From Octopus vulgaris (Eukaryota): a stretch of 64,000 nt of DNA. Below are positions 11,375-36,399 of this stretch, one piece after another. The notes beneath the pieces are model-generated. The model searched no databases. It was not told the DNA's origin and worked only from the letters and a program-made list of their open reading frames with translations. The DNA lies in contig OX597841.1 in assembly GCA_951406725.2 (NCBI GenBank), forward strand, positions 19,592,001-19,656,000, written 5' to 3'. Position numbers and translations under genes: made by a program. How positions within the stretch are numbered: the stretch's first letter is position 1; the number at the start of each line of letters is the position of its first letter.

Positions 11375-13140
11375 GAAGAATCCACTAGAGTGGATGCAAG
11401 CCCTTATATATGATTTATAAAAACATGTTATATATTAATAAAAATCTGTAAATATAAAACCATCCAGATTTCTAAGTACCTTATTTCTTCTAATATATAT
11501 GTAGTGGATCTTGCATGCATGAAGTGGATTCAATCCACCACAGCCAAATTTAAATTAACACTGCAACAGAACTTTTCCCATGGTGGAACAATGGTTTTTT
11601 TCTGTGACAGCAGTTTTACATTTTCCAGATGCCTTTAGCTAGGCCGAAATAATGTCTTCACCACTTGACCCTTTCTAACCTCTTCTACTACACCAAAAGC
11701 TAGAATAGAGATAACAAGACCACCAACTAAATCTATTGTTCTCAATGATATATCTATCCTTCTGGATAGTTATATAAGCAAGCATACCCCAAGCAAAAAT
11801 CAGTTAGTCACAGTCATTGACAATTCAACGAAGTCTGGCTGACCAACCTTGGTCAGAGGGAGAAATGTAGTTTACTATCAGCAACTGCGAGACAACGTCC
11901 CATGCCCCACAACTCTCATTACTTCTAATTCTGTTCTCTTACAACATCATCCTGTCTCTCTCAGCAATTACTACTACTAAACAATGAAGAGGACACAAAC
12001 AGAAACTTTACTTCGCATGCTTTTTGATCTATTATAACCTGTTCATCGAGGCAAGGTATTGTAACGTAACGGTAAATAAACATTTCCTTAAAACTTCATG
12101 CATTGTTCATCTTTCACATCCTGCAATTATAACAACTTTTTGTCATCACAACTGCTGACCCCAACATATTCACAATATTGTGTACATAATCAATTTTTCC
12201 CGTTACAATTGGTGACCCCGTATATATACGACAAGCTTCTTTCAATTTCCATCTACCAAATCCACTCACAAGAATTCGGTTGGCCCGAGGCTATAGTAGA
12301 AGACACTTGCCCAAAGTGTCACACAGTGGGACTGAACCAATAGCCATGTGGTTGATAAGCGAGCTACTTACCACACAGCCACTCCTGCACCTGTATATAT
12401 ATTTATATATAGAAACACACACACACCAACGCACACACACACACGCACACACACACACATATATATATGCTACAGACTTCTTTGAGTTTCCATCAACCAC
12501 ATCCACTCACAAGGCTTTTTTGGTCAGCCTGGGGCTATAGTAGAAGAACTTGCCCAAGACTACAGTGTTGGAAAGCAAGCTTCTTAACAAATAAAAGGAG
12601 AACATAAAAACTGGTTGACTGGCAAAATGTTTAAACAATGATAAAATAACTGGCAGGAATGATAGCATTTTTCACATTCTGAAAGGAAACCCTGCTGAAA
12701 TCCCCTTTTCATCCCTCCAGAGTCGATAGATAAAGCATCAGCTATACTCAGAAAAAAAAAAATCACCCCAGAAATGTGACTTTGCAGAAGAACGATAGGA
12801 ATCCATGACCACCAACAGATTTGAAGAGAGGCAGCAAGCAGTGCCTGAAGGGAGCCAAATGAAAGATGAGTCAGCCAATTGGGAAAGCAGGAGGCAATAA
12901 TGGCTAGATATAACACAGCAGAGGGTTTCATCGTGTGTCCAGAATGCGTTCACCATTATGCGTATGACTATGGCCTCAGATCCCACGAGGGGATATACAA
13001 ATGAACAAAGTGTTAGGTTGGACTTGATCGACCAAATATATACTCAGCTCCAGTGTGAGCCATGGGAGACAACTGTGTGAACTGTGTGACAACTCAGTGT
13101 TTCTTTATCTTCACGGTATTGTTGAATGCAGTGTTAGGTT

Positions 13141-13630
13141 GACATGCATAAGATCTGGTCATCAAATCTAAGTAGAGACTTCAAACTTGAAATATGCAAA
13201 GCCACAGTCAAACCAATTCTACTATATGGCTCAGAAACCCGGACGTTATCAAAGAAGCTTGAGAGGCAGTTGGATGGAACCTACACTCGCCTCCTTATGA
13301 GAGCCCAAAATCTCTCGTGGAAGCGCCATCCAACCAAAATGCAAATATATGGGAAACTACCACCTGTATCATCTCTTGTGAAAGGTAGGAGAGTCCAGTT
13401 TGCTGGACATTGTTGTAGAGCTGAAAAAGAGGGAATTTCTACTTTTCTCCTCTGGAAGCCATCTGCTCGCGATACCAGAGGGCGCACACTCTCCTACCCT
13501 GATGTAATCTCCAGGGATACAGGCATCCAGCAACAGGACCTCCGTAATGCTATGATGGACCGTGAAGTCTGGCATAGCATGGTAAATTCCATTGTCTCGG
13601 CCACGGTCGAACAATGATGAATGATGATGA
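13141..13630 (+). mobile_element. 3' end of a different RTE-like LINE
   Basis: ORF 13144-13617: IWSSNLSRDFKL...KPILLYGSET...RRVQFAGHC...RGR, then a (TGA)n tail. Confidence 0.85.
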
Positions 13631-14340: not shown

Positions 14341-17128
14341 CAACACTCAATCTCTCATTTGATGGTTCCTAGCGCCACACTTGGTACCCCACTTCAGCTG
14401 CTGGGCCAAACCAAGTGAAGGTATGCTGTTAACTTTGTACCAGTAAACAATAGACTCCAAAGTAACATTTCCCAAGGGCTGAAGAACCTGCTCAGGCCAA
14501 TGGCCTAGTGTTTGGTGCCAAGGCGTATCTCAGGTAGAGGTATACAGTTAAGGTTAACAGCAGAGGAATGGGCGCTGCTAAGCTAGCTTATCCATGAAAC
14601 ATTCAAGGAGATGACAACCCGAACAGAACCCCCACCAGATGAGCAGCTGCCTGGGTTAACATCAAGGAGGGGGACAGGGTTTGATTTTGCTGGCTCACAG
14701 AGGGTAGCAGAAGACAGAGGTAAGTGGCAATATCTGGTTGTCAGTGAATGTCCCCAATGACCAAAAGGTCAATGGGCAGGAAGAAAAAGAAAATGAAAGA
14801 AATGGAGTTGGGTGGAGCTAGGGCGAGTAACATACTCCCATCTGACTGGCACGCTGTCAGTTACAACGACACGGGTTCCAGTTGATCCGATCAACAGAAC
14901 AGCCTGCTTGTGAAACGAATGTGCAAGTGGCTGAGTACTCCACAGACACACATATCCTTTATGTAGTTCTTGAGGAGATTCAGCGTGACACAGAATGTTA
15001 CAAAGCTGGCCCTTTTGAAACACAGGTACAACTCATTTGTGCCAGCTGAGTGGACTGGAGTAACGTGAAATAAAGTGTCTTGCTTAAGGACACAATGCGT
15101 TGCTGGGAATTGAACTTACGACCTTACAATTGTGAGCTGAATACCCAAACCACTAAGCCACATGTCTTCACTATTCTTTTCTAGTATGCCACAGATACCA
15201 AATAACCTAAGGAACATCACAGGGAACAGGGATTGAGCATTGCCCGTTGAATTTGAACTCGTTCAGCCAAATCCCAGTGATGGCCATTGCTGCTGTCATG
15301 GAAACGGCATTTGTGAGATCGTACTCCTGGCCATTGCCAGAATCATGATGTCCGAATGTTGGGCCTCATGGAGGCAATGACAAGTGACTGGGCCCTTTGT
15401 TGGTGATATGCAGGGCTTGAGAAGACTTGTCAAGTGGAATCATAGTTGTGGCCAATAAGGTGGCGAGCTGGCAGACATGTTAGCATGTCTGGTGAAATGC
15501 GTAGCCGTATTTCGTCTGCCGTTATGTTCTGAGTTCAAATTCCGCCAAGGTTGACTTTGCCTTTCATCCTTTCGGGGTTGATTAAATAAGTACCAGTTAC
15601 GCACTGGGGTCGATATAATCGACTTAATCCGTTTGTCTGTCCTTGTTTGTCCTCTCTGTGTTGAGCCCCTTGTGGGTAGTAAAGAAATACATAGTTGTGG
15701 CCATTGCCGGTGGTATGTAAAAGGCACCCACTACACTCTTGGAGTGGTTGGCATTAGGAAGGGTGTCCAACTGTAGAAACCAAGCAAGATCAGACTGGAG
15801 CCTGGTGCAGCCCTCCTGTTTACCAGTTCCAGTCAAGCCGTCTAACCCATGCCAGCATGGAAAGCAGATGTTAATGATGATGTTTTAATGTTTATTTCTC
15901 CGTTTTTGCATGGATTGGATGACTTCTTTTAAGTCAGATCTGCTACAGTCGGATGCCTTTCCTGTCAACAACCCTCACCTGTTTCCAAGCAAGTTAATAT
16001 TTCCCCATGGCTAGACATGATTTTCCCTTAGAATAGGTTCGAATGCTGGCACCAGGCTAGTAATTTCAGAAGAGGGAGTAAATATCGATTACATCAATCT
16101 ACAGGGTTCAACTGGTACTTCTTCCATTGACCCTGCAAGGATGAAACACAAAGTGAACCTCAATGGAATTTGAACTCAGAAGGTAAAGACAGATGAAATG
16201 CCACCAAGCATTTTGCATGACATGCTAACAACTCTGCCAATTCCTAGCCTTAGATCTTCCCATGATATTGGAAAGGAATATCACTGCTAATGAGATAGTG
16301 ACACTCATTTACTACAACTCTCTTGAAATGTCAAGCAAGACAAGGCGACACACACACACACACACATACACACGCACACATATGTATATATCATCCAGTG
16401 CCCCCTCCCCTCTCGTAATTCCTTGTCTTGCAAGTTACTTGGTGACCCTACCGGTGCTGGTGCCACATAAAAAGCATTCAGTCCACACTGTAGAGTGGTT
16501 GGCATTTGGAAGGGCATCCAGCCATAAAAACCATGCCAAAACTGACCTTGCCTTGTGCTGGTGTCACGTAAAATGCACTGAGTCCACTCTGCAGGGTGGG
16601 TGGTGTTAGGAAGGGCATCTAACAGTCAAATCCCTACCAAAACAGACACAGTAGCTTAGGGTAGTTCTTCTACCTGGCCAGCTCCTGTCAAACCATCCAA
16701 CTCACGTGGTTGAAAAGCAATCTTTTCACCATACAGCCATGCCTATGCTTAAGGCTTCTTTCAGTTTCCATCCCTCAAGTCTTCTCACAAGTAGAAGACA
16801 CTTGCTTACGAAGCCACACAGTGAGACTGAACTCGAAACCCTGTGGCTGGGAAGCAGACCTCTAAACCAGAGCCATGCCTCGGCCCATAACACAATAAAA
16901 CATTTAAAAAAGTGACCTCTGCTGCTAAATAATGCTAACAGGTTTCATTGGGTTAATGGAACCTGCATAGCTGGACATTTCCCAGACTGTTTTCCTTCTG
17001 AAGACAGGCCTTTGCACCTGAAATATAAAGGTTTCACAAAACTCTGCACATTATCAGAAGCATTTTATTTCCCTCTTTTTTACCTTCTTTGATAAAAAGA
17101 AAAGATAAAAGAGCCCCAAACAACATAC

Positions 17129-17388
17129 TTGACACATCTTCGGTAAACCATTTTCCAGTCAATCTCGCACTCGTCGGCTTCCTTTGGAATAAATACCAAA
17201 AGTTGGTCGTTGTTGAAATTATAAAAACACAGCTGCTTCCATAGGATCTTCTCTTCGGACAGTTCGTAGATGAAGCTGTTTGTGAGACCAGTGTGGACAA
17301 TGTCCTTGTGGTCGTTGAGCCGGAGCAGGATGTCTCGGATGCAGTCTTCTGGCAGGTCGCTAAAGGTCAGCTTGCCATCATTTTCTCG
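17129..17388 (-). CDS. FBXO32: FBXO25/32 F-box-domain exon (260 nt)
   Basis: cctcacatgcAG / GTatgt. RENDGKLTFSDLPEDCIRDILLRLNDHKDIV...SEEKILWKQLCFYNF...IDWKMVY carries the F-box signature LTFSDLP..I...IL.RL and LW..LC. Confidence 0.97.
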
Positions 17389-17637
17389 CTGCATGTGAGG
17401 AAGAATGAGAAAGTGAGAGTGAAGAAGAGTGAGAGGGGGGCATCAAGTGAGGAAGAGTGATAGGGATGAAGAGAGAGAGAGAGAGGGAGAGAAAGAGGGA
17501 GTGGTAGGGAGTATGAGTGAGTTAGGGAGGATGACAGGAGAGTATGAGTGTAAGGGTGAGTGAGAGAAAGAGCAACGTAGAGAGGTGGAAAAAGAGTGGG
17601 AGGGAGAGTGAGAGGGAGAGAAGAATAGAAGAAGAAT

Positions 17638-20879: not shown

Positions 20880-21470
20880 TGGTGAGATGTGACAGCAAAG
20901 AAAAGCATACATTCACTCTCTGCATGCAATTAGACTCGGAAAGTTCGTGAGGAACCCATTGACCCAATTTGCTGACTTTTCCGATAGCACACAGGTGTCA
21001 ATGAATGGTTGAATGACCAAATCCAAGTTTCTCTGCTAGTTCCTCAACAGTTACGATGAGATTTTGTTCCACCAGGGTTTTCAGGATGTCCTTGTCGAGT
21101 TCTACAGATCTTTCAGGATGAGGCTCGTCTTCTAGGCTGTAGTTTATGGCTCGGAATTTCTGGAACCACCATTGACACTGCCTTACGCTTATTGTCCAAT
21201 CCCCATATACTGCATTAATATTTCTTGTACTTTCCGTTGCGTTGTTGTCTTTATTGAACTCATAAAGCAAAATATGCCAAATATGCTCCTTTGTTACTTC
21301 CAATATAGCTTTGAAAAAAATAGCTGTTAAAATCGAAATGCACTCTTCAAAACTTGCACTATGAATAAGGACAAGATAAAATTACTACCTGCTTTTATAG
21401 CAAGTTAATATAAGTAGTTTATCCCATTCCCCTCTGACATTTAGTTCAAGCTGTTGAAAAAACCGCATTA
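20880..21470 (-). mobile_element. 5' fragment of a second mariner (cecropia/Hsmar1-like)
   Basis: ORF 20998-21303 has a mariner HTH (HILLYEFNK..NATE...WFQKFR..YSLEDEP). After a stop it continues GKVSKLGQWVPHEL. Confidence 0.85.
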
Positions 21471-22655: not shown

Positions 22656-23936
22656 TATGAAAAGTTTTGAGCCTAACCTAGAAACAGGACTGCTATATGG
22701 CCGAAACAGTTTTTTCTGGCAAGTACCGTCTTTTCGGAGTATTCTTGCTCATTTTCATGATTCTGATATTTTAATTTTTTCTGTTGCAGACTTTTGAATG
22801 AACAAGTGTCGAGGTTACAAGGAAAATGGAGAAAACTGAGTATCGTGCTGTCATAAAGTAGCTTCATTTGAAAGGCATGACTCCATCAGAAATCCATGAA
22901 GATATGGTGAGAACCTTAGCAGACAATGCTCCTTCATATGCAACAGCCAAATGCTGGGTAAATGAATTCCAGTGTGGTAGGGAGAGTGTGGAAGATGAGC
23001 CCAGACCAGGGAGACCTCCAACTGCAACCACCAAGGACAACCTTGACCTTGCTCTTGGTATGATAATGCAAGATCGCCAAACATCATGTCATCAGATAGC
23101 CAAGAGACTGGGCACCTCAACTGAAAGAGCTGACAACATTGTGACAAAAGAACTTGGGTACTCAAAGGTTTCTGCAAGGTGGGTCCTTCACCTTTTGACT
23201 CTTCAACAGAAACATACCAGGTGCACTTTGTCCATGAGCAATCTGGAACTGTTTGAAGCCGATGAAGAGAATTTCCTTGCTTGCTTCATTACTATGGACG
23301 AAAGTTGGGTTCATCACTTCCAGCCTGAAACCAAAGAACAATCAAAGCAGTGGAAGCACACATCTTCTCCTACCCCAAAGCAGGCCAGGGTCATTCCTTC
23401 AGCTGGCAAGGTCATGGCATCGGTTTTGGCGATTCTCAAGGTGACTTGCTGATCGATTACCTTGAAAAGGGACACAACATGACAGGGCTGTATTATTCTC
23501 AGCTACTGAAATGCCTCCGAGACGCAATCAAAGAAAAAAGGCCGGGAATGCTCACCAGAGGAGTCCTTTTTCATCGCAACAATGCTCCAGCCCACACCTC
23601 AGTGGTTGCCATGGCAACAATTCGTGAGTGTGGATACGAACTTGTCCCCCATCTGCCTTATTCGCCAGACTTAGCCCCCTCTGACTCTCATCTATTCCCC
23701 AAAATGCAAAAAGTCCTGGCAGGTTGCCATTTTGCCAGTGACAATGACGTCATAGGAAGTTTCTTGGAGTTTCAAATAAAGGAGTTCCTCTACGCCAGGA
23801 TAATGGCGCTTCGGCACCGCTGGAGAAAATGTTCAGCCATCGAGGGGGGGGGGACTATGTTGAAAAATAAATCATCAGAAGTCTTGTACCATGTTTTGTT
23901 CTTTTGAGGCTCAAGACTTTTCATACACCCCTCGTA
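22656..23936 (+). mobile_element. Near full-length mariner (DD34D) transposon, defective; irritans/Bytmar-like
   Basis: ATG 22826 MEKTEYRAVIK*LHLKG; motifs WVLHLL (WVPHxL), TMDESW and YSPDLAPSD; ends GDYVEK* at 23870. Right TIR ggctcaagacttttcatacacccctcgTA and partial left TIR tatgaaaagttttgagcc. One stop (22859) and frameshifts near 23425 and 23850. Confidence 0.93.
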
Positions 23937-25967: not shown

Positions 25968-26254
25968 AGTAATGTTTAACACCAGAGAGAGGATACCTGT
26001 TATTTCAACAAGAGGAGGAGACCTCTTCCAGCTGGTCCTTCAGTGCGCTCCACATTCAATATTCACTGCAAGCAGGGCAAGAACTCCCTACTCTTCCAGC
26101 TTCGGGACCACCAACTGCAAGGTTTCAACCTTTTCTATGGACATCCTTCGTAATGAAGACTCATCTGCTACAAGTCTCATGGATGCTTGACTGTGCATTG
26201 GATAACCAGCTGGAAGTGGTGTCCTCCTGGGGTTAAATATATATTTATGTAGTA

Positions 26255-28069
26255 ATGTGCAAGCCATGTACAGAGATGCCGTAAGTAAGGTTAGGGTTGG
26301 CAACATGTACACAGAAGAATTCAAAGTAGAGGTTGGGGTCCACCAGGGTTCAGTACTCAGCCCCCTCCTATTTATCATAGTCCTCCAGGCAATTGTGGAG
26401 GAATTCAAGACAGGCTGCCCCTGGGAGCTCCTCTATGCTGACGACCTCGCTCTAATTGCTGAGTCACTATCAGAACTGGAGCAGAAGTTCCAGGTGTGGA
26501 AGGAGGGTTTAGAATCGAGGGGCCTTAGAGTCAACCTAGCTAAAACCAAAGTACTAATAAGTAGAAAGGTAGACAATCCACAAATATCCTCAGGAAGATG
26601 GCCCTGCTCGATCTGTAGAAAAGGTGTAGGTAGAAACTCTATAAGATGTACCCAGTGTAAGCTATGGACACATAAGAGGTGCAGCAATGTCAAAGGTAGG
26701 CTAACTGGGAAGATAGTTTTTGTATGTGGCAGATGCTCGGGAGCATTGACCTCCGAAAATCTGCAGAAAATAACTTCCATCACTTTCCAAGGGGAAAAAC
26801 TAGAAGTAGTTGATAGCTCCCGATATCTAGGTGACCAAGTCAGTAGTGGGGGTGGGTGCGCTGAAAGTGTAACTGCTAGAATAAGAATAGCCTGGGCAAA
26901 GTTTAGGGAGCTCTTACCTCTGCTGGTGACTAAAGGCCTCTCGCTCAGAGTAAAAGGCAGACTGTATGATGCATGTGTATGAACAGCCATGCTACATGGC
27001 AGTGAAACATGGGCCGTGACTGCCGAGGACATGCGTAAGCTCGTGAGGAATGAAGCCAGTATGCTCCGATGGATGTGTAATGTCAGTGTACTTACTCGAC
27101 AGAGCATTAGTTCCCTGAGAGAAATGTTGTACCTAAGAAGCATCAGTTGTTGCGTGCAAGAGAGACGATTGCGCTGGTATGGTCATGTGGCGAGAATGGA
27201 TGAAGATAGGTGTGTGAGAAAGTGCCAACCCTTAGCAGTTGAGGGAACCCGTGGAAGAGGTAGACCCAGGAAAACCTGGGACGAGGTGGTGAAGCACGAC
27301 CTTCGAACTTTAGGCCTCACTGAGGAAATGACCAGCGACCGAGACCTTTGGAAATATTCTGTACGTGAGAAGACCAGGCAGGACAAGTGAGCCCAGCCGA
27401 CTTATGAATGCCTTTCCTCCCTTGGACACAAAGACCTGTTGAGGCAAGCGAAGTCGATATAGAACCTCATCCGACGACAGGCACCCATGCCAACCCCTTT
27501 GCTTGCGAAGACATGTTGGGGCAAGCGAAATCGAAATCGAATTGAACCAGCCAGGATCCCTGGTCTGGTGGTACGTAAAAAGCACTATCCGACTCGTGGC
27601 CGATGCCAGCGCCGCCTCCACTGGCTTCCGTGCCGGTGGCACGTAAAATACACCAATCTGACCGTACGACAGGCACCCATGCCAACCCCCTTGCTTGCGA
27701 AGTCATGTTGGGGCAAGCGAAATCGAAATCGAAATCGAATTGAACCAGCCAGGATCCCTGGTCTGGTGGTACGTAAAAAGCACTATCCGACTCGTGGCCG
27801 ATGCCAGCACCGCCTCGTCTGGCATAAAATACACCAATCCGACAGTGGCCGTTACCAGCCTTGCCTGGCACCTGTGCAGGTGGCACGTAAAAAGCACCCA
27901 CTACACTCACGGAGTGGTTGGCGTTAGGAAGGGCATCCAGCTGTAGAAACACTGCCAGATAAGACTGGAGCCTGGTGCAGCCTTCTGGCTTCCCAGATCC
28001 CCGGTCGAACCATCCAACCCATGCTAGCATGGAGAACGGACGTTAAACGATGATGATGATGATGATGAT
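26255..28069 (+). mobile_element. 5'-truncated RTE-clade LINE (RT C-terminal half, 3' UTR, (GAT)n tail)
   Basis: GVHQGSVLSPLLF, LLYADDL, a Cys-rich CxxC insert, LHGSETW, ERRLRWYGHV and RGRPRKTW. One in-frame TGA at 26980; stop at 27390; repetitive 3' UTR ending aaacgatgatgat. Confidence 0.93.
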
Positions 28070-33180: not shown

Positions 33181-33460
33181 CTGTTTCAAAGACACAAAAT
33201 GAACAAAAGATAAGGAATTGCTCCACCACTTCACACTGTTTCTGTCACTCTCTCTCTTTCTCTACCTCTCTTCAAAACAAAATAAAGGCACAATCAGTAT
33301 AGGCATTCGAGTGGCTGTGTGGTAAGTAGCTTGCTTACCAACCACATGGTTCCAGGTTCAGTCCCACTGCATGGCACCTTAGGCTAGTGTCTTCTGCTAT
33401 AGCCTCGGGCTGACCAAAGCCTTGTGAGTGGATTTGGTAGACATAAACTGAAAGAAACCC

Positions 33461-33515
<55 letters not shown>

Positions 33516-33762
33516 GTGTGTGTGTGTGTGTATGTGTGTGTGTGTGTGTGTGTGTGTATGTTTGTCCCCCCAACATCGCTTGACAACCGATGGTGGTGTG
33601 TTTACATCCCTGTAACTTAGCGGTTCGACAAAAGAGACCGATAGAGTAAGTACTCGGCTTACAAAGAATAAGTCCTGAGGTCGATGTGCTCGACTAAAGG
33701 CAGTGCTCCAGCATGGCCACAGTCAAATGACTGAAACAAGTAAATAAAAGAAAAACTATAAC

Positions 33763-34007
33763 AAATTTCAAACCTGAGTTCTCATTCCTAAGGTATTTTT
33801 TGATGTTGTTGTTATCATTATTATTATTATTATTATCATCATTATTATCATTATTATTATTAATATTATTATTATCATTAATATTATTATTATCATTAAT
33901 ATTATTATTATTATTATCATTATTATTATTAATATTATTATTATCATTAATATTATTATTATCATTATTATTATTATTATCATTATTATTATCATTATTA
34001 TTATTAA

Positions 34008-34060
<53 letters not shown>

Positions 34061-34580
34061 TATTATTATTATTATTATTATTATCATTAATATTATTATT
34101 ATCATAATAATATTATTATTATTATCATTATTATTATTAATATTATTATTATCATTAATATTATTATTATCATTATTATTATTATTATCATTATTATTAT
34201 CATTATTATTATTAATATTATTATTATTATTATTAATATTATTATTATTATTATTATTATTATCATTATTATTCAGCTCACTGCCTGGAATCGAACATGG
34301 AATCATAGGGTTAGTAGCCCACGCTCTTAACCACTATGCCATATGCCCGTGATTCCAAGTTCGATTCCAGGAAGTGACCTGAATAATAATGATAATAATA
34401 ATAATAATAATCATAAGAAAAACACCAACATCATAAAATAAACTTAGGAATGAGAACCGAGGTTTGAAATTTCCCCAAAACACCTGATGAAGGCTGGAGG
34501 GTATACCAGCCGAAATGTTGTGTTAACAACAAACAAGATGAGGACAAATATCCGTCAAATGTAATTACTGTAAATAATGT
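33763..34580 (+). mobile_element. tRNA-headed, hammerhead-tailed element with an inverted 5' duplication
   Basis: Minus-strand head 34272-34351 has A box TGGCATAGTGG and B box GTTCGATTCC; a plus-strand partial head lies at 34350-34384. Arms 33763-33813 and 34421-34472 are reverse complements. Hammerhead at 34479-34524. Confidence 0.75.
34479..34524 (+). ncRNA. Minimal type-I hammerhead ribozyme motif
   Basis: aacac-CTGATGA-a-ggctgg(agggtata)ccagcc-GAAA-tg-TT-gtgtt: 5-bp stem I and 6-bp stem II. Stem III ATGT is probably a C>T decay of palindromic ACGT. Confidence 0.75.
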
Positions 34581-35039
34581 AAAATAAGCACCAGTTGAAC
34601 TCTGGGGCTGATGTAATTGACTTGTCCCCTCTCCAGAAATTGCTGGCCTTGTGCCAAAATTTGAAACCAATATAGTAACTTTGTCTGTTATCTTTTATAT
34701 GTTTCAGTCACTGGACTGAGGCAATGGAGGGGCCCTCAATTGAAGGGGTTTTAATCAAACAAATCAACCCCAATACTTATTTTGTTTCTAAAGTCTGGCA
34801 CTTATTTTATCAATTTCCTTTTGCCAAACTGCTAAGTTATGAAATATGTGTGCTAGGTGTGTGGTAAGAAGCTTGCTTTGTAGCCACATGGTTCAAGGTT
34901 CAGTCCCACTGTGTGGCACCTTGAGCAATTGTCTTCTACTATAGCCTTAGGCCAACCAAAGCCTTGTCTGTAGATTTGGTTGATGGAGGCTGAAAGAAGC
35001 CCATCGTATGTATACATACATACATACATACATATACAT

Positions 35040-35090
<51 letters not shown>

Positions 35091-35092
35091 TA

Positions 35093-35151
<59 letters not shown>

Positions 35152-35363: not shown

Positions 35364-36399
35364 GCGTGGTTGTGGGGTAAGTAGCTTGCTTACCAACCAC
35401 ATGGTTCCGGGTTCAGTCCCACTGCATGGCACCTTGGGCAAGTGTCTTCTGCTATAGCCTCGGGCAGACCAAAGCCTTGTGAGTGGATTTGGTAGACGGA
35501 AACTGAAAGAAGCCTGTCATATATATGTATATATATCTATATGTATGTGTGTGTGTGTTTGTGTGTCTGTGTTTGTCCCCCTAGCATTGCTTGACAACCG
35601 ATGCTGGTGTGTTTATGTCCCCGTCACTTAGCGGTTCGGCAAAAGAGACTGATAGAATAAGTACTGGGCTTACAAAGAATAAGTCCCGGGGTCGAGTTGC
35701 TCGACTAAAGGCGGTGTTCCAGCATGGCCGCAGTCAAATGACTGAAACAAGTAAAAAAAAAAAATAATTATATATATATGGTGTTAGGAAGGGCATCCAG
35801 CTGTAGAAACACTGCCAGATCAGACTGGAGCCTGGTGCAGCCTCCTGGCTTCCCAGACCCCGGTCGAACCGTCCAACCCATGCCAGCATGGAAAACAGGC
35901 GTTAAACGATGATGATGATGATGATGATTAAAGCCAAGTGAAATCATATTTGTGACTGATGCTGGTGTCACGTAACTGGCACCCGCACCAGTGGCACATA
36001 AAGGCACCTGTGCTCGTGGCACATAAAAAGCACCCATTACACTCTTGGAAAACATGGAAAGCCTAAATGATGATGATGATGATGATGACATATATGCATT
36101 ATATATGCATGTATGTGTTTCGTAATGCACATGACCCCTCACTCCCATGCAAAACCAGTCTGTGCAGCAAAAAAAAAAATTGATTGGGGACCTCAATGAA
36201 GATCATAGTAATCTCTAACGGAGGCTGGGGGCCAGGACTGTGTGGGGAGGGGAGCTGGGGCAGTTAATGATATTGACTTCAGTAGGTGACAGGTACATTA
36301 TTTTAGTGGGCCTTGAAGGATGAAGGGCTAAGGTTGGCTTTAGCAGGATTTGAACTCAGAATACTGCACAGCATGGTTCTGCCAGTTCCCCATCGTTGA

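What the first reader, a model, noticed from the sequence alone, without database searches (positions are those of the whole stretch)
33763..34580. Pol III tRNA-promoter plus hammerhead-ribozyme retroelement with Penelope-style inverted duplication
Seen: a tRNA-like head with A box (TGGCATAGTGG) and B box (GTTCGATTCC), an (AAT)n linker, a 50-bp conserved block, then a type-I hammerhead fold (aacac-CUGAUGA-stem II-GAAA-UGUU-guguu). The 5' part is present twice, head-to-head. Established: Penelope-like elements carry minimal type-I hammerheads and leave partial inverted repeats; schistosome SM-alpha is a SINE-like hammerhead repeat. Inference: a non-autonomous SINE that uses a Pol III promoter, self-cleaves, and is mobilised by a Penelope-type RT. 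I do not know of such a family described in cephalopods.
Basis: partly seen in the sequence, partly recalled or inferred. Interest (0 to 1): 0.8.

Follow-up and report, generated by a model that had tools for sequence, protein, structure and literature searches.

The report
Penelope retrotransposon with tRNA-derived promoter
This is a broken, head-to-head pair of terminal repeats from a protein-coding Penelope-type jumping gene whose repeat begins with a tRNA-like piece, so the element likely used RNA polymerase III, an enzyme thought to serve only short non-coding mobile elements.

Summary
The parts are real, but this is not a stand-alone SINE. It is a head-to-head pair of solo pseudo-LTRs (pLTRs) of an autonomous Penelope/Poseidon-type retroelement. 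In this genome the same cassette (tRNA-like head, (AAT)n, block, hammerhead, tail) follows the stop codon of an RT + GIY-YIG ORF and also leads in frame into that ORF's start (L333). Solo and ORF-linked copies share the majority base at all 258 columns tested. Inverted partners (49 of 88 loci), an extension at one end only (0 of 88 at both) and a minimal hammerhead overlapping the ORF start are textbook Penelope. The new part is the tRNA-derived A/B-box head inside the pLTR of a coding element (0 of 33 relatives' hammerhead sites have it). Copies stop sharply at the head's first bases, and the 2.5-kb coding strand has no TTTT terminator (P about 0.025). Best reading: Pol III transcribed the whole element, and short copies are run-off cDNAs ending at the transcript start (0.55). 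Main rival: Pol II from a TATA-like word just upstream. Expression and cleavage are untested. The family is about 5-7% decayed, with about 20,000 arms.

The parts
34275..34349 (-). Complete tRNA-like head of the pLTR (left arm)
   Evidence: a natural family copy aligns best to a genomic tRNA-Arg(TCG), 49 of 74 nt, among 30 tRNA loci of six isotypes
34331..34341 (-). A box
   Evidence: A+B pattern positive on this arm
34287..34296 (-). B box (left arm)
33814..34274 (-). Expanded (AAT)n linker, about 460 nt
   Evidence: tens of nt in most copies
33763..33813 (-). Block with the ORF's ATG (33785-33783); the arm is cut off before the hammerhead
34350..34385 (+). 3' part of the head (from about nt 45) with B box 34359-34368; inversion junction at 34349/34350
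34386..34414 (+). Short (AAT)n linker
34415..34478 (+).
   Evidence: in the family the frame from this region runs open into the RT
34479..34524 (+). Minimal type-I hammerhead: stem I 34479-83 / 34520-24, core 34484-90, bulged A, 6-bp stem II, GAAA 34512-15, predicted cut after 34519; a C->T change at 34516 spoils the helix-III palindrome
34525..34581 (+). Tail up to the inner 3' end point; the optional about 35-nt extension is absent

Best explanation
[quoted passage not shown] Shown: the unit is head - (AAT)n - block with ATG - hammerhead - tail - extension - RT/GIY-YIG ORF - stop - about 35-nt spacer - head again (about 2.6 kb). Inferred: Pol III starts a few bases before the head and reads through a coding strand without TTTT. 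Inferred by analogy with anole Poseidon (PMC11167929): the protein binds the first about 170 nt of the ORF, cuts AT-rich DNA on both strands and primes reverse transcription internally at two sites, about +120 to +139 and about +165 from the ATG. Priming at the first pLTR-ORF junction copies only back to the RNA's 5' end and gives the abundant short SINE-like copies. Two such cDNAs joined at their far ends give inverted pairs with the extension on one arm only. Priming at a downstream junction gives ORF-bearing copies. The hammerhead is predicted to cut weakly, as a dimer or with protein help, about 70 nt after the ATG. At this locus the left arm reached the RNA's 5' end, the right arm stopped at head nt 45, and the left arm's outer part was probably lost later.
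For: Linkage: the head follows the ORF end in 15 of 30 RT-picked loci (a 16th partial) and follows the spacer in 28 of 30 spacer-picked loci. The pLTR body precedes the ORF start in 25 of 30 loci picked on the ORF's 5' part. L333 shows a full partial tandem. One lineage: 65 solo versus 36 ORF-linked arms, majority base differs at 0 of 258 columns. Penelope marks: inverted partner upstream in 49 of 88 loci and downstream in 1 of 88; extension on one arm in 37 of those 49 and on both in 0 of 88; two 3' end clusters, with flanks 74% AT versus 63% background. A 55%-identical relative (P0003) keeps the hammerhead-encoded peptide at its N-terminus. Sharp 5' end: 67 of 71 listed head arms share at most 11 nt with the spacer. 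Genome-wide exact words: tail 12,578, head start 3,429, spacer 1,090, endonuclease 1,015, a threefold or larger drop over about 25 nt and then flat over 170 nt. Pol III: A+B pattern in 19 of 30 family heads, 0 of 33 relatives' hammerhead sites and 0 of 8 other-family Penelope loci here. Zero TTTT in 2,502 majority columns versus 2.9 in synonymous shuffles, P = 0.025; a young Neptune-type ORF of equal T content has 9 in 2,346 nt; median 3.8 per kb in 56 relatives.
Against: No RNA evidence and no transcription or cleavage assay. A TATA-like word (TTTATAA, overlapping the stop codon) lies about 30 nt before the head, so a Pol II start would fall at the same place. The TTTT test is modest (P = 0.025, one family). 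TTT runs are not significantly depleted (14 versus 17.8, P = 0.11). The decayed single copy L141 has 3 runs, like its shuffles, and 3 of 56 relatives' ORFs also have none without a tRNA head being found. A and B boxes are no better conserved than other head columns, as expected of one neutral burst, so selection on them is not shown. An uncapped 2.6-kb Pol III RNA would have to be translated. The priming model is borrowed from another species' element.
Confidence: 0.55

Rival explanations
1. Same element, but transcribed by Pol II from the TATA-like word at the ORF's stop codon; the tRNA piece is a passenger (an old SINE head inserted at the start site) and the sharp 5' end marks a Pol II start.
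For: TTTATAA about 35-28 nt before the head. TATA-like words occur upstream of the hammerhead in relatives L222, L223 and L226 (by eye). pLTR promoters driving the downstream unit are the known Penelope mode (PMC6765202 passages). A capped RNA explains translation.
Against: Does not explain the absence of TTTT over the unit, including the pLTR, where 28 of 33 relatives' sites have at least one within 300 nt. The word may be just a codon end plus the stop. Both boxes and their tRNA spacing are intact in the family.
Confidence: 0.22
2. Dual use, closest to the first reader: Pol II or read-through makes the coding RNA, while short Pol III RNAs from pLTRs, including solo ones, are mobilised in trans as a nascent SINE.
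For: Solo full-head arms outnumber ORF-linked ones by about 4-6 to 1 (13 versus 3 in the set picked on the ribozyme alone). Solo arms are slightly less diverged (5.0% versus 6.6%). Copies with the extension carry about 165 nt of ORF, near the 172 nt that anole Poseidon needs.
Against: No diagnostic base separates solo copies (0 of 258 columns). The divergence gap follows how the solo sets were picked. With no TTTT in the ORF a Pol III transcript from a full element would not stop short.
Confidence: 0.15
3. The 5' pile-up is a reverse-transcriptase stop or fold-back at the short hairpin and tRNA-like structure at the head start, and says nothing on the promoter.
For: A 5-bp palindrome straddles the head start, and many inversion junctions sit on it.
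Against: Copies without an inverted partner also start there (L036, L052, L059, L060). About one arm in five reads through and then declines very slowly. It does not explain the missing TTTT.
Confidence: 0.08

Closest known systems
Penelope/Poseidon clade of Penelope-like elements, e.g. Poseidon of Anolis carolinensis (PAc; PMC11167929, first two of four parts read)
   Same: RT with C-terminal GIY-YIG, partial tandems, inverted 5' copy, optional 30-40-nt tail, hammerhead overlapping the ORF start, two 3' end points inside the ORF, AT-rich targets.
   Different: The pLTR starts with a tRNA-derived A/B-box head and an (AAT)n leader; coding strand free of TTTT; very large excess of solo pLTRs with a defined 5' end.
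Minimal hammerheads of metazoan PLEs (Cervera and De la Pena 2014, PMC4209133, first two of four parts read)
   Same: Short helix I, longer helix II, unpaired base before helix II, G10.1-C11.1 pair, palindromic helix III, mostly dispersed single copies from truncated PLEs.
   Different: No tRNA-like promoter is described in the parts read.
Sm-alpha / Sj-alpha of schistosomes (passages in PMC6765202 and PMC2770079; primary papers not read)
   Same: tRNA-related Pol III promoter followed by a hammerhead.
   Different: Non-coding tandem repeats; the passages name no autonomous element that carries the same repeat.
TRIMp3: Cassandra, Helenus, Ajax (PMC10886601, passages)
   Same: Small-RNA-derived Pol III promoter placed inside a terminal repeat.
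   Different: Non-autonomous LTR elements of 311-1263 bp; the paper expects their autonomous partners to use Pol II, whereas here the coding element itself has the head.
Non-LTR retrozymes (PMC7229834 passages; bioRxiv 10.64898/2026.07.22.740005, first part and passages)
   Same: Hammerhead repeats related to PLE pLTRs.
   Different: Retrozymes are head-to-tail arrays without protein; here tandems of the short unit are rare (4 of 88 loci) and the term tRNA does not occur in the preprint's main text.
Octopus SINEs OK, OR1, OR2 (Ohshima and Okada 1994; not held; tRNA-Arg origin of OR1/OR2 recalled)
   Same: tRNA-derived head, possibly of Arg type.
   Different: OR2 is listed as a CORE SINE (PMC4758252 passage). 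No sequence comparison was possible, so identity with one of them is not excluded.

Membership tests
Penelope-like element, Penelope/Poseidon clade | RT and C-terminal GIY-YIG endonuclease in one ORF | tested here: met
   L141 569-aa frame: RVT_1 E 2.7e-6, just under the curated cut-off; no Pfam GIY-YIG hit. Endonuclease motif seen by eye and aligned in relatives 55-68% identical over 99% of the query.
Penelope-like element, Penelope/Poseidon clade | pLTRs formed by partial tandems | tested here: met
   ORF end - pLTR - ORF start in L166, L172, L174, L178; full structure in L333.
Penelope-like element, Penelope/Poseidon clade | Inverted truncated copy at the 5' end; 30-40-nt extension at one end | tested here: met
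   49 of 88 upstream, 1 of 88 downstream; extension never on both arms; feature as described in PMC8557442 passages.
Penelope-like element, Penelope/Poseidon clade | Minimal type-I hammerhead in the pLTR | tested here: met
   Motif and stems present. 18 distinct relatives' motifs show 3-4 pair types at each of the first four stem II positions, though the scan required these stems. Cleavage not tested.
Penelope-like element, Penelope/Poseidon clade | No Zn-finger linker between RT and EN (present in Neptune and Nematis) | tested here: met
   By eye: absent in L141, present in the other family L092.
Penelope-like element, Penelope/Poseidon clade | Phylogenetic placement against named clade references | not tested
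   No named reference sequences were in hand.
SINE (SINEBase definition, PMC3531059 passage) | Short, with a tRNA-derived head | tested here: met
   Short copies about 250-500 nt; head like tRNA-Arg and found weakly by a tRNA profile in 19 of 30 loci at E <= 1.
SINE (SINEBase definition, PMC3531059 passage) | Non-autonomous lineage distinct from the RT donor | tested here: not met
   Same sequence as the coding element's pLTR; 0 of 258 majority differences.
SINE (SINEBase definition, PMC3531059 passage) | Transcribed by Pol III from the internal promoter | tested here: inconclusive
   Boxes, 5' step and lack of TTTT favour it; the TATA-like word allows Pol II.
SINE (SINEBase definition, PMC3531059 passage) | Depends on a partner LINE | tested here: not met
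   The 3' part belongs to a Penelope-type ORF and the insertion pattern is Penelope-type.
Non-LTR retrozyme | Head-to-tail arrays of hammerhead units | tested here: not met
   4 of 88 loci have a second direct body nearby.
Non-LTR retrozyme | Circular RNA | not testable with these tools
   No RNA run was listed.
Octopus OK/OR1/OR2 or a Repbase/Dfam entry | Sequence identity to the catalogued consensus | not testable with these tools
   No repeat library on hand; 1994 paper and SINEBase supplements not held.

The most novel reading that the evidence does not exclude
An autonomous, protein-coding retrotransposon that replaced its Pol II promoter with a captured tRNA gene, purged TTTT terminators from 2.6 kb and was transcribed end to end by Pol III. 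Its run-off cDNAs left about 10,000 SINE look-alikes without any SINE master, so solo Penelope pLTRs record the start site of their own RNA and may show how hammerhead SINEs such as Sm-alpha arise.
Probability: 0.5. Interest if true: 0.8.

Novelty: new variant of a known kind. Interest (0 to 1): 0.62.

Why it matters
The working rule is that coding retrotransposons use Pol II and only short non-coding passengers use Pol III; PMC10886601 states this expectation outright. A coding Penelope element with a tRNA head in its pLTR would be an exception and would raise a testable question: how an uncapped 2.6-kb RNA with an (AAT)n leader and a ribozyme in its first codons gets translated. The copies also confirm, at genome scale, the two-site internal priming model shown in vitro for anole Poseidon, and give a route from Penelope pLTRs to promoter-plus-hammerhead repeats. 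Practically, tens of thousands of 'SINE' calls in such a genome may be Penelope pieces. The family looks dead, and no host function is implied.

Tried and rejected
Rfam (gathering over the window; E <= 10 over 34200-34700) gave no tRNA or hammerhead match, only hairpin-type chance hits from the inverted repeat; ARAGORN found none. Relaxed ARAGORN hit 17 times in 28 heads but also 14 times in relatives' flanks, so it was not used. The GIY-YIG family search returned other, Neptune-type families with no similarity to this cassette; rejected as partners. My first A+B pattern could not have matched this family's own B box; it was replaced by one with a positive control. The first synonymous-shuffle test had a frame slip in one scaffold and was redone. 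One search used wrong coordinates and only re-found pLTRs. No RNA holder was listed; this is no evidence either way. Viral contigs gave no relative. Earlier findings of this scan: none shown. A recalled family name ('Chuyu') found nothing relevant. Ten paper searches listed no report of a tRNA head in the pLTR of a coding PLE; most hits were seen only as listings. Target-site duplications were not tested systematically. tRNA-like hits in L222, L265, L277 and L280 lie away from any located pLTR and were taken as unrelated insertions.

Full report
Observation. The window holds two arms that meet at 34349/34350. The left arm, on the minus strand, has a complete 75-nt tRNA-like head with A and B boxes, about 460 nt of (AAT)n and the first 51 nt of a conserved block; it ends at 33763, before the hammerhead. 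The right arm starts at about head nt 45, so it has the B box but no A box, then a short linker, the block, a hammerhead at 34479-34524 and a tail to about 34581. The hammerhead was the only hit of a strict scan of both strands of the window. Rfam and ARAGORN see neither the head nor the ribozyme. No single arm here runs from promoter to ribozyme.

The family. Of 29 head-picked loci, 23 continue into the body and 21 into a whole hammerhead. A 45-nt ribozyme word with GAAACGTT has 915 exact copies, control 0. In loci not picked on the ribozyme the palindrome bases are C in 63 of 81 and G in 55 of 74 arms, with the losses typical of CpG decay. The window's T at 34516 is such a decay; the duplex energy of the palindrome goes from -3.5 to +0.8 kcal/mol. 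Across 88 loci an inverted partner lies upstream in 49 and downstream in 1. An optional extension of about 35 nt is on exactly one arm in 37 of the 49 pairs and never on both. These are the insertion marks described for Penelope-like elements (PMC8557442, passages). The ribozyme fits the minimal PLE type of PMC4209133 (first two of four parts read), which cleaved poorly and only as dimers in vitro.

The partner is the element itself. Young GIY-YIG-bearing families in the genome are Neptune-like and share nothing with the cassette. A tblastn of the first 60 loci found a different RT remnant directly upstream of a head in L033. Searching with it (7,369 candidates, 150 scored, 30 loci) showed the head about 35 nt after the ORF's stop in 15 of 30 loci, with a partial 16th; most others end earlier. 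Conversely, 28 of 30 loci picked on an exact spacer word continue into the head, and 25 of 30 loci picked on the ORF's 5' part are preceded by the pLTR body. L333 shows ORF end, pLTR, whole ORF, pLTR. The 'extension' is simply the next stretch of the ORF. By column majority the frame is open from inside the block through the ribozyme to the stop (2,502 nt, no internal stop; depth falls to 1 at some columns). A relative 55% identical, P0003, keeps the ribozyme-encoded peptide at its N-terminus. Among 101 distinct full-head arms, 65 solo and 36 ORF-linked, the majority base differs at none of 258 columns. The feature is therefore a pair of solo pLTRs, not a separate SINE lineage.

Size and age. 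Exact words: tail 12,578; head start 3,429; spacer 1,090; endonuclease 1,015; all controls 0. Calibrated by small samples (15 of 25, 6 of 21, 7 of 12, 6 of 16) this is roughly 21,000, 12,000, 1,900 and 2,700 arms; the head figure is uncertain about twofold. Divergence from the majority is 5-6.6%, biased low by picking best hits. With the rate used in PMC13282606 (main text read; 0.065 = 18 My) that would be roughly 14-18 My, if the rate applies. No intact ORF was seen; the longest open frame among the RT hits was 569 aa.

Mechanism. In anole Poseidon (PMC11167929, first two of four parts read) the ORF starts inside the hammerhead, the protein needs the first 172 nt of the ORF, cuts both strands at AT-rich sites and primes at two internal sites whose interval is the optional tail; uncut RNA is the main template. 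Here the ATG is 34 nt before the ribozyme core and the two 3' end clusters map to about +120 to +139 and about +165, with AT-rich flanks (74% versus 63%). I infer the same cycle. Priming at the first pLTR-ORF junction can copy only back to the RNA's 5' end, which predicts many short copies with a common start. That is seen: 67 of 71 listed arms share at most 11 nt with the spacer (one of these, L109, is ORF-linked by eye, and some arms are mirror partners). Word counts drop at least threefold across about 25 nt and by only 7% over the next 170 nt.

Which polymerase. For Pol III: the start coincides with a tRNA-like head (best match tRNA-Arg, 49 of 74 nt, among six isotypes sampled) with A and B boxes in tRNA spacing. 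The pattern finds 19 of 30 family heads, 0 of 33 hammerhead sites in 79 metagenome loci of relatives (32-50% identical; many loci end before the pLTR) and 0 of 8 Neptune-type loci. The coding strand has no TTTT in 2,502 majority columns, against 2.9 in synonymous shuffles (P = 0.025) and 4.5 by composition; head, body and spacer columns have none either. Controls: 9 in a 2,346-nt Neptune ORF of equal T content and a median of 3.8 per kb in 56 relatives. Against: 3 of those 56 also have none; TTT is not significantly depleted; the single decayed copy L141 shows no depletion; the boxes show no extra conservation within the family; and TTTATAA at the stop codon would put a Pol II start at the same place. 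No RNA data could be had. I put whole-element Pol III transcription at 0.55, Pol II with a passenger head at 0.22, dual use with a nascent SINE at 0.15 and an RT stop artefact at 0.08. That the feature is a solo pLTR pair of a coding PLE is common to all four (about 0.95).

Comparison and novelty. Promoter-plus-hammerhead repeats are known as Sm-alpha and Sj-alpha (passages), small-RNA promoters inside terminal repeats as Cassandra, Helenus and Ajax (passages), and pLTR-derived hammerhead repeats as retrozymes. All are non-coding. PMC10886601 expects autonomous partners to use Pol II because of Pol III's weak processivity. Ten searches of the held library listed no coding PLE with a tRNA head. 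Subscription papers, Repbase, Dfam, SINEBase data, the 1994 octopus SINE paper, bioRxiv supplements and the Zenodo library of PMC13282606 could not be seen, and the family may be catalogued there as a SINE or a Penelope. Verdict: a new variant of a known kind, interest 0.62; 0.8 if Pol III transcription of the coding element is shown.

Noticed in passing
L091, L092, L093 (e.g. L092:287-3687); one search list: Young Neptune-type PLE family with many intact 781-aa frames and a separate upstream frame of about 330-380 aa without a Pfam match; long pLTR with tandem CCAAT-type repeats and a TATA box.
   Followed up: partly
L068, L070, L071, L074, L079, L085: Hammerhead variant with a TTGATAA core (the U3-A8 covariation reported for Cercyon) downstream of these Neptune-type endonuclease genes.
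   Followed up: no
window 33311-33760, 34858-35101, 35366-35772 and about ten more places: A second, very abundant tRNA-like repeat with an internal (TA)n(TG)n tract flanks the feature; probably a known octopus SINE (recalled, not tested).
   Followed up: no
L020, L021, L156, L161: The same about 300-nt foreign sequence is inserted in the (AAT)n linker of several copies, suggesting another element that targets AAT repeats.
   Followed up: no
L160, L164, L170, L175, L177, L180, L184, L185, L187: Internally deleted copies (ORF 5' part joined to a downstream pLTR) with different breakpoints each, so no shared non-autonomous subfamily among them.
   Followed up: partly
L252:3501-5117, L220:3501-5235, L224:694-2433: Related PLE ORFs from other organisms with no TTTT in the matched stretch (7.4 expected for L252) but no tRNA head found.
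   Followed up: partly
window 17080-17442 (-): Open frame that looks like an exon of an F-box protein (resemblance recalled); the feature may lie in or near this gene.
   Followed up: no
window 22862-23907 (-), 20998-21381 (-), 26206-27390 (-), 13138-13617 (+): Remnants resembling mariner transposase and LINE reverse transcriptase by eye.
   Followed up: no
family linker, e.g. L053, L059: The leader before the ATG often turns from (AAT)n to (AAC)n, reminiscent of CAA-rich viral translation leaders (recalled); might matter for translating an uncapped RNA.
   Followed up: no
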